DNA of 64,000 bases from the human T2T-CHM13v2.0 reference genome, Homo sapiens, in the NCBI RefSeq assembly GCF_009914755.1, contig NC_060925.1. One strand, 5' to 3'. The notes below the pieces were generated by a model that was not told where the DNA came from, did not search any database, and was given only the letters and a program-made list of their open reading frames with translations. Positions 40,500 through 43,125 of this stretch are shown in pieces. The translations under genes were made by a program, and so were the position numbers. Position 1 is the first letter of the stretch. Each line of letters starts with the position of its first letter.

Positions 40500-40780
40500 T
40501 GTATTAGTCAGCTGTGTCTGCCATAACACATTCCACGGACTGGGTGACTTAAACAACAGAAATTTTGTTGCTCACAATTCTGGAGGCTGAAAAGTCCAAG
40601 ATCCAGATGCCAGACAAATCACTTCCTAATGAGGTCTCTCCTCCTGGTTTACATATGACACAGCCTTCTTGATGTGTACTCACATAACAGAAATAGCTAG
40701 ATCTCTCTCTTCCTCTTCTTATAAGACCATCAATCCTACTGGATTAAAGGTCTCAACTCTTATGACCTCACAAGAGGTCA
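40500..40780 (-). mobile_element. MaLR LTR fragment (MLT1-like)
   Basis: tgtattagtcagc...ttaaacaacagaaattt...ctcacaattctggaggctg. Confidence 0.75.
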
Positions 40781-40936
40781 CATGGGTGCCCTCCTAAGAG
40801 GGTACCTTCATAAAAAGGCAGCCACATTGGTAGTCAACATAACCAAAATCTAGACATGTAGTCAGCAAGTCTACATAACCAAACTGTAATAAAAACTTTG
40901 TTTTTTTTTTGTTTTTTTTTTGAGGCCAACATTTCT

Positions 40937-42769
40937 TTTTTTTTTTTTTTTTTTTTATTGATCATTCTTGGGTGTTTCTCGCAGAGGGGAATTTGGCAGG
41001 GTCACAGGACAATAGTGGAGGGAAGGTCAGCAGATAAACAAGTGAACAAAGGTCTCTGGTTTTCCTAGGCAGAGGACCCTGCGGCCTTCCGCAGTGTTTG
41101 TGTCCCTGGGTACTTGAGATTAGGGAGTGGTGATGACTCTTAACGAGCATGCTGCCTTCAAGCATCTGTTTAACAAAGGACATCTTGCACCACCCTTAAT
41201 CCATTCAACCCTGAGTGGACACAGCACATGTTTCAGAGAGCACAGGGTTGGGGGTAAGGTCACAGATCAACAGGATCCCAAGGCAGAAGAATTTTTCTTA
41301 GTACAGAACAAAATGAAAAGTCTCCCATGTCTACCTCCTTCTACACAGACACGGCAACCATCCGATTTCTCAGTCTTTTCCCCACCTTTCCCCCCTTTCT
41401 ATTCCACAAAACCGCCATTGTCATCATGGCCCGTTCTGAATGAGCTGTTGAGTACACCTCCCAGACGGGGTGGTGGCCGGGCAGAGAGGCTCCTCACTTC
41501 CCAGTAGGGGCGGCCGGGCAGAGGCGCCCCTCACCTCCCGGATGGGGCGGCTGGCCGGGCGGGGGGCTGACCCTCCCACCTCCCTCCCGGAAGGGGCAGC
41601 TGGCCAGGCAGAGGGGCTCCTCACTTCCCAGTAGGGGCGGCGGGGCAGAGGCGCCCCTCACCTCCCAGATGGGGCGGCTGGCCGGGTGGGGGGGCTGACC
41701 CCCCACCTCCCTCCCGGAGGGGGCGGCTGGCCAGGCGGGGGGCTGACCCCCCCACCTCCCTCCCGGACGGGGCGGCTGGCCGGGCAGAGGGGCTCCTCAC
41801 TTCCCAGTAGGGGCGGCCGGGCAGAGGCGCCCCTCACCTGCCGGACGGGGCGGCTGGCCGGGCGGGGGGCTGACCCCCCCACCTCCCTCCCGGACAGGGC
41901 GGCTGGCCGGGCGGGGGGCTGTCCCCCCCACCTCCTTCCCGGACAGGGTGGCTGGCCAGGCGGGGGGTGACCCCCACCTCCCTCCCGGACAGGGTGGCTG
42001 CCGGGCGGAGACGCTCCTCACTTCCCAGACGGGGTGGCTGCCGGGCGGAGGGGCTCCTCACTTCTCAGACGGTGTGGCTGCCGGGCGGAGGGGCTCCTCA
42101 CTTCTCAGACGGGGCAGTTGCCAGGCAGAGGGTCTCCTCACTTCTCAGACGGGGCGGCCGGGCAGAGACGCTCCTCACATCCCAGATGGGGCGGCAGGGC
42201 AGAGGCGCTCCCCACGTCTCAGACGATGGGCGGCCTGGCAGAGACGCTCCTCACTTCCTAGATGGGATGGCGGCCGGGCAGAGACGCTCCTCACTTTCCA
42301 GACTGGGCAGCCAGGCAGAGAGGCTCCTCACATCCCAGACGATGGGCGGCCAGGCAGAGACGCTCCTCACTTCCCAGACGGGGTGGCGGCCGGGCAGAGG
42401 CTGCAATCTCGGCACTTTGGGGGGCCAAGGCAGGCAGCTGGGAGGTGGAGGTTGTAGCGAGCAGAGATCACGCCACTGCACTCCAGCCTGGGCACCATTG
42501 AGCACTGAGTGAACGCGACTCCGTCTGCCATCCCGGCACCTCGGGAGGCCGAGGCTGGCGGATCACTCGCAGTTAGGAGCTGGAGACCAGCCCGGCCAAC
42601 ACAGCGAAACCCCGTCTCCACCAAAAAATACGAAAACCAGTCAGGTGTGGCGGCGCGCACCTGCAATCGCAGGCACTCGGCAGGCTGAGGCAGGAGAATC
42701 AGGCAGGGAGGTTGCAGTGAGCCGAGATGGCAGCAGTACAGTCCAGCTTTGGCTCGGCATCAGAGGGAC
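40937..42769 (-). mobile_element. SVA (D-like), lacking the 5' (CCCTCT)n hexamer
   Basis: Poly-T; SINE-R (attgatcattcttgggtgtttctc); GC-rich VNTR ~41455-42390; Alu-like domain to ggctcggcatcagaggga; TSD gaggccaacatttct at 40922-40936 and 42770-42784. Confidence 0.97.
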
Positions 42770-42812
42770 GAGGCCAACATTTCTGAGACTGGGCAGTTTA
42801 CAAAGGAAAGAG

Positions 42813-43125
42813 CCAAACTGTAATAAAAACTTTGAACACAGACTCGAATGAGATCCTTGTGTTGTCAATGTCCTGTGGGTACTGATATGTATTGTTGGCA
42901 GAAATAGACAATGACCACAAGGCTCCACAAAGAGCAAACAACTAGAAACTTGTGCCAGGTGGTTCACAGATCCTGTGCTATGCACCCTGTTCCTTGGTTA
43001 ATTTTATTTGAGCTTTTCATAGTAATAAATCATAACTGTGAATATAAAGCCTTTTCTAAGTTCTTAATTCCTTCTAGGATTACTGAACCTGTGGGTTTTC
43101 TTGGGGACACCCAAATTTGCAGCTG
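42813..43125 (+). mobile_element. MER21-like LTR remnant (host of the SVA cassette; continues left of 40900)
   Basis: aataaaaactttgaacac...cataactgtgaatataa...tactgaacctg...ttggggacacccaaatttgcag. Confidence 0.55.

What the first reader, a model, noticed from the sequence alone, without database searches (positions are those of the whole stretch)
40879..42834. SVA with two nested TSD pairs and two poly(A) tails: candidate combined 5' and 3' transduction
Seen in sequence, read on the minus strand: outer 22-bp repeat (42813-42834), 28 unique bp, inner 15-bp repeat (42770-42784), SVA, poly(A), inner repeat again (40922-40936), second A-tail (40901-40921), outer repeat again (40879-40900). On the plus strand the outer repeat is ccaaactgtaataaaaactttg and the inner is gaggccaacatttct. 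Established: SVAs can transduce 5' and 3' flanks. Inference: this copy came from a source SVA whose transcript started upstream and ended just past its own TSD, so the inner pair is the parent's TSD and acts as a barcode for the lineage. The alternative is an SVA landing in a pre-existing ~65-bp retrocopy.
Basis: partly seen in the sequence, partly recalled or inferred. Interest (0 to 1): 0.8.

Follow-up and report, generated by a model that had tools for sequence, protein, structure and literature searches.

The report
SVA copy carrying parent's flanking sequence
This is a human SVA retrotransposon that carried small pieces of its parent's neighbourhood on chromosome 13, including a spliced-on exon from an old LTR, to chromosome 1; every part of this mechanism is already known, so it is a neat but ordinary case.

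Summary

The reading as a combined 5' and 3' transduction is supported and refined.
- **The 28 bp spacer is not unique.** It is the 3' end of a MaLR-type LTR; 5,799 genome sites match at up to 3 mismatches.
- **The 43-mer upstream of the SVA exists nowhere else as one piece**. It matches chr13 perfectly in two pieces 2,113 bp apart: 30/30 ending at the LTR's CAG|GTATGT donor, and 13/13 starting after a pyrimidine tract and AG. Expected chance co-location is 1e-5.
- **The 5' piece is therefore a spliced exon.** The acceptor lies 13 nt upstream of a source SVA whose target-site duplication was (A)AGAAATGTTGGCCTC.
- **The 3' piece is that duplication**, cut 32 nt past the SVA's AATAAA.
- **The source SVA is missing.** The chr13 site is empty in CHM13, and no sibling copies exist.

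Such features are described for other SVAs (PMC12593883). Damert 2018 apparently lists this copy as hs_SVA_D6d with no ape orthologue. An unrelated truncated SVA lies 2.6 kb upstream of the chr13 site.

Interest is low to moderate.

The parts
42813..42834 (-). Outer TSD, 5' copy (in SVA sense): chr1 target-site duplication, 22 bp
   Evidence: family D8, 100% identity. In sense it reads CAAAGTTTTTATTACAGTTTGG, preceded by ...tgtgtt.
42783..42812 (-). 5' transduction, part 1: last 30 nt of an exon from a MaLR-type LTR on chr13, ending at its splice donor (...CAGTCTCAG)
   Evidence: 30/30 identical to L031:2490-2519 (C13:113078490-113078519), which is followed there by GTATGT. LTR context shared by 11 other copies.
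42770..42782 (-). 5' transduction, part 2: 13 nt (AAATGTTGGCCTC) lying between a chr13 splice acceptor and the source SVA. This is the 5' TSD copy of the source minus its first bases.
   Evidence: 13/13 identical to L031:4633-4645, preceded there by ...ttgttttctttctttgtctggtttgatatctaAG.
42400..42769 (-). SVA Alu-like region. It begins g-tccctctgatgccgagcc and has no CCCTCT hexamer repeat.
   Evidence: reading; 25 hits of 68-75% to Alu copies elsewhere in the window. The canonical 5' ends of other SVAs are printed in the PMC12593883 supplement.
41474..42399 (-). SVA VNTR
   Evidence: Tandem Repeats Finder arrays with periods of 37 to 176 bp; repeat families D1-D4.
40957..41473 (-). SVA SINE-R region, including the AATAAA signal (+ strand 40954-40959 overlaps the tract below)
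   Evidence: 98.07-99.03% identical to 11 other genomic SVA copies. It is the only SINE-R in the window.
40937..40956 (-). Internal A tract (A20 after AAT): the source SVA's own tail, copied as template
40922..40936 (-). 3' transduction: the 3' TSD copy of the source SVA (AGAAATGTTGGCCTC). Only 14 nt are unambiguous, because the leading A merges with the A tract.
   Evidence: family D13, 100%. Identical to L031:4631-4645. Its end is 32 nt past the AATAAA hexamer.
40901..40921 (-). Second poly(A) tail (A10 C A10), added to the read-through transcript
40879..40900 (-). Outer TSD, 3' copy
   Evidence: family D8, 100%.

Best explanation
The element between the outer repeats is one L1-mediated retrotransposition product of a chimeric RNA made on chr13.

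1. A 5'-truncated, hexamer-less SVA_D-type element (the source, not present in CHM13) had inserted at T2T chr13:113,080,631-645. Its TSD was (A)AGAAATGTTGGCCTC.
2. Transcription came from upstream and ran through a sense-oriented MaLR-type LTR. That LTR's poly(A) hexamer reads GTTAAA instead of ATTAAA.
3. The LTR's 3'-terminal donor (CAG|GTATGT) was spliced across 2,113 nt to an AG acceptor that sits inside the 5' TSD copy, 13 nt before the SVA.
4. The transcript then ran through the SVA, its AATAAA and A tract, and the 3' TSD copy. It was cleaved at the only CA dinucleotide there (CCTC|A), 32 nt past the hexamer, and polyadenylated.
5. L1 proteins inserted this RNA on chr1 with a 22-bp TSD. 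The copy begins 30 nt before the splice junction, either by 5' truncation or because the RNA started there.

What is shown: the anatomy on chr1; the perfect two-piece match to chr13; the GT-AG boundaries; the empty chr13 site; and the absence of any contiguous 43-mer in the genome.

What is inferred: the former existence of the source SVA, the promoter, and the order of events.
For: - **The pieces are not contiguous anywhere.** The 43-mer is unique in the 3.1-Gb assembly at up to 3 mismatches. The 24-mer spanning the junction has only one other hit, at 3 mismatches and not in LTR context.
- **Both pieces map to chr13.** The exact 28-mer occurs at 3 other sites and the exact 15-mer at 9 other sites. 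One of each lies on chr13, same strand, right order, 2.1 kb apart. The expected number of such pairs by chance is 9.5e-6.
- **The match is perfect and the boundaries are splice sites.** Identity is 30/30 and 13/13. The boundaries read CAG|GTATGT and ...cta-AG|, with 72% pyrimidines over positions -3 to -42, and the intron is 2,113 nt.
- **The LTR donor has precedent.** MaLR LTRs carry a splice donor at their 3' end downstream of the poly(A) signal (PMC5538554, passages). MaLR LTRs start spliced chimeric transcripts in testis (PMC3836709, passages).
- **The poly(A) site is explained only if an SVA was there.** The 43-mer contains none of 14 poly(A) hexamers (list recalled). The chr13 pre-mRNA has only a weak AAGAAA overlapping the acceptor. 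In the copy, the SVA's AATAAA lies 32 nt upstream of the cleavage point.
- **The chr13 site looks like an L1 endonuclease target.** It reads tatct|AAGAAATG.
- **The event looks young.** Outer TSDs are 22/22 identical and the transduced bases 43/43. This fits the hs_SVA_D6d listing with no chimpanzee or gorilla orthologue (PMC6139936 supplements).
- **Prior.** In PMC12593883 (section 7 and passages), 32 of 543 non-reference SVAs carry both transductions. Ultra-short 3' transductions equal to the source TSD, spliced 5' transductions, and origin sites lacking an SVA are all reported there.
Against: - The source SVA is not observed. The chr13 site holds a single copy of the 15-mer and no SVA.
- The 14-mer was not found in the supplementary tables of 543 non-reference SVAs from 35 people (cells cut at 400 characters).
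- No sibling copy exists in CHM13.
- The orthologous chr1 site in apes could not be examined, so the decisive presence/absence test was not done.
- The cleavage point coincides with the TSD end to within 0-1 nt. This is partly a coincidence under this model too.
- A different, truncated SVA lies 2.6 kb upstream of the chr13 site. Its closeness (naive chance about 1%) is unexplained and could point to a more complex history.
- The name 'MaLR' rests on recall of the consensus, not on a repeat-library match.
Confidence: 0.87

Rival explanations
1. Two nested, independent insertions on chr1. First, a 43-nt, heavily 5'-truncated retrocopy of the spliced chr13 transcript was inserted with the 22-bp TSD; it could have been an orphan 3' transduction of the truncated SVA that lies upstream on chr13. 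Later, an unrelated SVA landed inside it with a 15-bp TSD.
For:
- It would give the neighbouring chr13 SVA a role as the element that recruited L1 proteins to a read-through RNA.
- Orphan SVA transductions are reported (PMC12593883, section 7).
- A weak AAGAAA hexamer lies 16 nt before the cleavage point in the chr13 pre-mRNA.
- It needs no missing source SVA at the chr13 site, which is indeed empty.
Against: - It needs cleavage and polyadenylation only 13 nt after a splice acceptor, with no canonical signal.
- It needs a second SVA to hit a 43-bp target.
- It needs that SVA's TSD to end exactly at the body/tail boundary.
- No other retrocopy of this transcript exists: the 43-mer is unique.
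- No offspring carrying the upstream SVA's 3' flank was found: among the 40 scored of 1,793 candidates, the best non-self identity was 83%.
Confidence: 0.05
2. The model is the same source-SVA model, but the 30-nt and 13-nt pieces were joined in DNA rather than in RNA. The source haplotype would have carried a 2.1-kb genomic deletion, or the source would have sat in a processed retrocopy of the chr13 transcript at a third locus that CHM13 lacks.
For: The junction has a 2-nt AG overlap that could also serve as deletion microhomology. The source haplotype is unobserved, so its structure is unknown.
Against: - One of the three possible junction placements gives an exact GT...AG intron, with an extended donor (GTATGT) and a pyrimidine tract. 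This is expected for splicing, and I estimate about 1 in 16 or less for a random deletion.
- No contiguous 43-mer exists in the assembly.
- A third locus adds an extra unobserved step.
Confidence: 0.04
3. A single integration event in which L1 reverse transcriptase switched templates twice. It would have copied 15 nt of a chr13 RNA, jumped to an SVA RNA, then jumped back to the chr13 RNA and re-copied the same 15 nt.
For: Template switching between an mRNA and an SVA RNA has been proposed for another SVA chimera (PMC12593883, Fig. 3 legend).
Against: - It needs re-entry exactly at the 3' end of the non-A part of the first RNA, with no microhomology.
- It needs the same implausible poly(A) site as the nested model.
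- A target-site duplication explains the 15-bp repeat without special pleading.
Confidence: 0.02

Closest known systems
[quoted passage not shown]
   Same: Extra sequence lies on both sides of the SVA inside one TSD pair. There are two A tails. The 3' piece is just the parent's TSD. The origin site can be traced even though no SVA sits there now. In that paper 32 of 543 insertions carry both transductions, and it reports origin sites without an SVA.
   Different: That paper deals with non-reference (polymorphic) insertions. This is a copy listed in hg19 and present in T2T-CHM13. Its 14-mer is absent from that paper's tables.
Spliced 5' transductions: LINC02916 and UQCRC1 cases (PMC12593883) and ATP13A3 'exon1,2 & intron2 spliced' in chimpanzee pt_SVA_D6 (PMC6139936, Additional file 6)
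   Same: An upstream exon is spliced to a normal-type acceptor in flanking DNA. The transcript then reads through into the SVA and ends at or after the SVA's 3' end.
   Different: Here the donor exon is an LTR remnant rather than an annotated gene exon. Only 13 nt separate the acceptor from the SVA, and the acceptor AG lies within the source's TSD.
Exon trapping into SVA: SVA_F1 with MAST2 exon 1, and chimpanzee STK40-SVA (Hancks 2009 and Damert 2009 recalled, not held; Damert 2018 abstract)
   Same: An upstream exon is joined by splicing and then co-mobilised with the SVA, replacing its 5' end.
   Different: In those families the acceptor lies inside the SVA Alu-like region and a whole subfamily expanded. 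Here the acceptor is outside the SVA, the Alu-like region is intact, and there is a single copy with no siblings.
MaLR LTR-initiated or LTR-spliced chimeric transcripts (Franke 2017, PMC5538554; Young 2013, PMC3836709)
   Same: Use of the conserved splice donor at the 3' end of a MaLR LTR, downstream of its poly(A) signal, joined to a downstream acceptor.
   Different: Those papers concern host genes and lncRNAs. Here the downstream 'exon' was an SVA, and the product was retrotransposed. Whether the LTR was the promoter here is unknown.

Membership tests
SVA retrotransposon | SINE-R region followed by AATAAA and an A tail | tested here: met
   517 bp are 98.07-99.03% identical to 11 other copies. 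The first look gave 1,992 candidates, of which 40 were scored. AATAAA plus an A tract is present.
SVA retrotransposon | GC-rich VNTR of roughly 35-50-bp units | tested here: met
   TRF arrays at 41474-42399 with periods 37, 40 and 49 and multiples of these.
SVA retrotransposon | Antisense Alu-like region 5' of the VNTR | tested here: met
   42400-42769 gives 25 hits of 68-75% to Alu copies in the window. The sequence matches the 5' parts of SVAs printed in the PMC12593883 supplement.
SVA retrotransposon | (CCCTCT)n hexamer repeat at the 5' end | tested here: not met
   The copy starts g-tccctctgatgcc, so it is 5'-truncated at the end of the hexamer domain. Truncated SVAs are still counted as SVAs.
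L1-mediated 3' transduction | Non-element sequence between the element's own A tract and a second A tail, all inside one TSD pair | tested here: met
   A20, then a 15-mer, then A10-C-A10, then the 22-bp TSD.
L1-mediated 3' transduction | The transduced sequence maps to a locus where a source element sits immediately upstream | tested here: not met
   It maps to chr13:113080631-645, but the site is empty in CHM13. Other human and ape genomes could not be searched.
Spliced 5' transduction | The 5' extra sequence maps to two colinear genomic pieces separated by a GT...AG interval | tested here: met
   30/30 and 13/13 identity, 2,113-nt interval, donor CAG|GTATGT and acceptor cta-AG|.
Exon trapping into SVA (SVA_F1 type) | Splice acceptor inside the SVA Alu-like region, with loss of the hexamer and part of the Alu-like domain | tested here: not met
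   The acceptor lies 13 nt upstream of the SVA, in flanking DNA, and the Alu-like region is complete from its first bases.
hs_SVA_D6d subfamily (Damert 2018) | Listed by position, with diagnostic SINE-R substitutions | tested here: inconclusive
   Additional file 2 lists hs_SVA_D6d chr1:227897720-227898216 (hg19). This is within about 400 bp of my estimate, which rests on recalled gene coordinates, and the window has only one SVA. Three of my closest BLAST relatives lie near other D6d entries. The diagnostic bases were not checked.
MaLR (THE1/MST-type) LTR, for the chr13 exon | Match to the family consensus in a repeat library | not testable with these tools
   No repeat library is on hand. 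Support is indirect: the 28-mer has 5,799 matches; the chr13 element aligns over about 360 bp at 77-87% to 10 other copies; and the name comes from my recall of the consensus.

The most novel reading that the evidence does not exclude
The SVA insertion on chr13 created a new terminal exon for a germline transcript that started in, or ran through, a MaLR LTR. That LTR carries a DUX4-type motif and a disabled poly(A) hexamer, and the transcript may have been fed by read-through from the truncated SVA 190 bp upstream of the LTR. This capture would be what allowed an SVA lacking its CCCTCT domain to be expressed and mobilised at all. If so, LTR-donor splicing into the flank would be a route by which crippled SVAs regain mobility. 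It would also mean that tracing methods which expect contiguous flanks systematically miss such sources.
Probability: 0.3. Interest if true: 0.4.

Novelty: new member of a known kind. Interest (0 to 1): 0.3.

Why it matters
This is a clean worked example that a very short 'unique' 5' leader on an SVA can be a spliced product. It will not map as one piece, so tracing by a contiguous BLAT query fails while a two-piece search succeeds.

It places a now-missing SVA source at distal chr13 in the human lineage. It also shows an old LTR's splice donor feeding an SVA.

For the biology of SVAs it adds nothing new in kind. Double transductions, TSD-only 3' transductions, spliced 5' transductions and lost sources are all in print.

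Tried and rejected
- **Contiguous source flank.** The 43-mer and the junction 24-mer were sought in the whole assembly, and nothing but the locus itself and one chance hit was found. This first looked like evidence against any transduction, until the two-piece match appeared.
- **Old, diverged retrocopy as the reason for the missing parent.** Rejected, because at least 4 mismatches in 24 nt would clash with the 22/22 outer TSDs.
- **Homology of the leader to an SVA VNTR unit** (18/21 identical, family D4). Rejected as coincidence, because the match spans the splice junction of two unrelated chr13 pieces.
- **Siblings.** The tail-15-mer-tail pattern is unique. None of the 8 other exact 15-mer sites outside the window's two copies and chr13 adjoins an SVA or an A tail.
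- **Paralogous empty site for chr1.** The flank's old repeat ends at window 40771, about 100 bp short of the target.
- **Paralogous chr13 locus hiding the source.** Only 70-83% hits were found.
- **The upstream chr13 SVA as parent.** Rejected: it lacks the Alu-like region and most of the VNTR.
- **Literature.** Damert 2009, Hancks 2009 and Hancks & Kazazian 2010 are not held, so I cannot say whether this copy's transductions are already catalogued. Searches found no report of it.
- **Second SVA_D at distal chr13 in hg19.** Damert 2018's supplement could not be filtered to answer this.
Full report
**Observation**

Read on the minus strand, the region is laid out as follows:
- outer repeat CAAAGTTTTTATTACAGTTTGG (42834-42813);
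- 28 bp (42812-42785);
- inner repeat AGAAATGTTGGCCTC (42784-42770);
- an SVA (42769-40937) that starts g-tccctctgatgccgagcc, without a CCCTCT run, and ends AATAAA plus A17;
- the inner repeat again (40936-40922);
- a second tail A10-C-A10 (40921-40901);
- the outer repeat again (40900-40879).

Both repeat pairs are 100% identical. TRF places the VNTR at 41474-42399. The window contains no other SINE-R or VNTR.

**The 28 bp are not unique**

- The full 43-mer (28 + 15) occurs nowhere else in the 3.1-Gb assembly at up to 3 mismatches.
- The 24-mer across the 28/15 boundary has one other hit, at 3 mismatches in unrelated sequence.
- The 28-mer alone has 5,799 matches at up to 3 mismatches, self included.
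- In 11 other copies examined, it lies at the 3' end of an LTR-like repeat. In 7 of those 11 it sits directly downstream of an ATTAAA or AATAAA hexamer, and it is usually followed by ag/gg-gtatgt.
- I recognise this repeat from memory as a MaLR (THE1/MST-type) LTR. No repeat library was available to confirm the name.
- Homology to the LTR fades a few bases into the inner repeat, at exactly the point where the consensus reads CAG|GTATGT. That suggested a splice donor.

**The chr13 locus**

- The exact 15-mer occurs at 9 sites outside the window's two copies. One is at C13:113080631-645.
- One of the three other exact 28-mer sites is at C13:113078490-517, on the same strand and 2.1 kb upstream.
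- The expected number of such pairs by chance is 9.5e-6.
- Reading the locus shows the chr1 leader is 30/30 identical to L031:2490-2519, which is followed by gtatgt. It is 13/13 identical to L031:4633-4645, which is preceded by ttgttttctttctttgtctggtttgatatcta-AG.
- The interval is 2,113 nt with GT...AG ends. Positions -3 to -42 before the acceptor are 72% pyrimidine.
- The 15-mer is present once, followed by atagaattg. There is no SVA at that point, so CHM13 carries the empty site.
- None of the other eight 15-mer sites adjoins an SVA or an A tail.
- The tail-15-mer-tail pattern is unique to the window.

**Mechanism**

The simplest account is as follows.
1. A source SVA once sat at the chr13 site with TSD (A)AGAAATGTTGGCCTC. 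The target reads tatct|AAGAAATG, which is acceptable for L1 endonuclease.
2. A transcript coming through the sense-oriented LTR used the LTR's 3' donor and an acceptor whose AG lies inside the 5' TSD copy.
3. It ran through the SVA and its A tract into the 3' TSD copy. It was cleaved at CCTC|A, the only CA in the first 25 nt beyond the A tract and 32 nt past AATAAA.
4. The polyadenylated RNA was inserted on chr1 with a 22-bp TSD.

This account explains three things:
- why the 43-mer is nowhere contiguous in the genome;
- why the '15-bp' inner repeat is really 13 nt of TSD plus an AG supplied by the exon end;
- why a poly(A) tail follows a sequence that has no poly(A) signal of its own. The 43-mer has none of 14 hexamers (list recalled), and the chr13 pre-mRNA has only a weak AAGAAA overlapping the acceptor.

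The chr13 LTR reads GTTAAA where most copies have ATTAAA, which would favour read-through to the donor. That last point is an inference.

**Literature support for the components**

- A conserved splice donor at the 3' end of MaLR LTRs is described for rodent families (PMC5538554, passages).
- MaLR LTRs start spliced chimeric transcripts in human testis (PMC3836709, abstract and passages).
- Whether the LTR, or something further upstream, was the promoter here cannot be told. Only the last 30 nt of the exon survive in the copy.

**Age and family**

- The SINE-R is 98.07-99.03% identical to the 11 closest scored copies. Only 40 of 1,992 candidates were scored.
- Damert 2018 (PMC6139936, Additional file 2) lists hs_SVA_D6d chr1:227897720-227898216 (hg19), with no panTro4 or gorGor5 orthologue entered.
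- Additional file 1 gives 22 of 24 D6d members as human-specific; the two shared members are on X and Y.
- That position is within about 400 bp of my estimate, which relies on recalled gene coordinates. The window has a single SVA, so the identification is probable rather than proven.
- The perfect outer TSDs and the 43/43 identity to chr13 fit a human-lineage event.

**An unexpected neighbour**

- The chr13 locus holds another SVA at L031:1339-~2003, in the same orientation. It ends about 190 bp upstream of the LTR and 2.6 kb upstream of the inferred source site.
- It is truncated within the VNTR, its SINE-R is 97.9% identical to that of the chr1 copy, and it has its own short 3' transduction (18 nt plus A10).
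- It lacks the Alu-like region, so it cannot be the parent.
- An SVA this close has a naive chance of about 1%, and somewhat more in SVA-rich regions. It may be coincidence, or its read-through may have supplied the upstream transcription. I could not decide between these.
- The spacer after it and the target region have only 70-83% matches elsewhere. So no paralogous locus hides the source, and no offspring carry its flank.

**Rivals**

- **Nested model (about 0.05).** A short retrocopy came first and an SVA landed in it later. This now needs polyadenylation 13 nt after a splice acceptor, a second SVA hitting a 43-bp target, and a TSD ending exactly at the tail boundary.
- **DNA-level join (about 0.04).** A 2.1-kb deletion on the source haplotype, or an intermediate retrocopy at a third locus, is possible. 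It is less likely given the exact GT-AG ends.
- **Double template switch (about 0.02).** This requires a contrived re-entry with no microhomology.
- The decisive ape comparison could not be run here.

**Comparison with what is known**

PMC12593883 (section 7 and passages) reports the following for non-reference SVAs:
- 32 of 543 non-reference SVAs carry both transductions;
- ultra-short 3' transductions that are the source's TSD;
- 5' transductions made by splicing between upstream exons followed by read-through into the SVA;
- origin sites without an SVA, attributed to loss or low frequency.

Chimpanzee examples are in PMC6139936 Additional file 6. This copy differs from SVA_F1-type exon trapping in that the acceptor lies outside the SVA. 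Damert 2009 and Hancks 2009 are not held, so I cannot say whether this copy is already catalogued. My searches found no report of it.

**Verdict**

This is a new member of a known kind, of modest interest.

Noticed in passing
L031:1339-2030 (G000 C13:113077339-113078030): A second, VNTR-truncated SVA lies on chr13, 2.6 kb upstream of the inferred source site and about 190 bp upstream of the LTR, in the same orientation. After its tail come 18 nt (aaaccctacactccactg) and an A10 run, so it seems to carry its own ultra-short 3' transduction. Whether its closeness is chance or mechanistically linked is unexplained.
   Followed up: partly
window 42778-42798: This stretch is 18/21 identical to one SVA VNTR unit at 42099-42119 (family D4). 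The match spans the junction of the two unrelated chr13 pieces, so I take it as coincidence.
   Followed up: partly
L031:2277-2287 and L031:2483-2488: The chr13 LTR contains TAATTGAATCA, which fits the DUX4 binding motif as I recall it. It reads GTTAAA where 7 of 11 other copies examined have ATTAAA or AATAAA just before CTCTTTCC.
   Followed up: no
window 41769-42705: The RefSeq 'enhancer' feature given by the hub lies wholly inside the SVA, covering part of the VNTR and most of the Alu-like region.
   Followed up: no
window 40640-40771: The flank on the low-coordinate side belongs to an old interspersed repeat, with 72-86% identity to many copies (92% for one 39-bp hit). The repeat ends about 100 bp before the chr1 target site.
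   Followed up: partly
L031:4560-4830: The chr13 target site and acceptor lie in an old high-copy repeat, with 70-79% identity to 39 other scored places out of 875 candidates. From memory it resembles an ancient L1 fragment. The splice acceptor used is therefore itself repeat-derived.
   Followed up: partly
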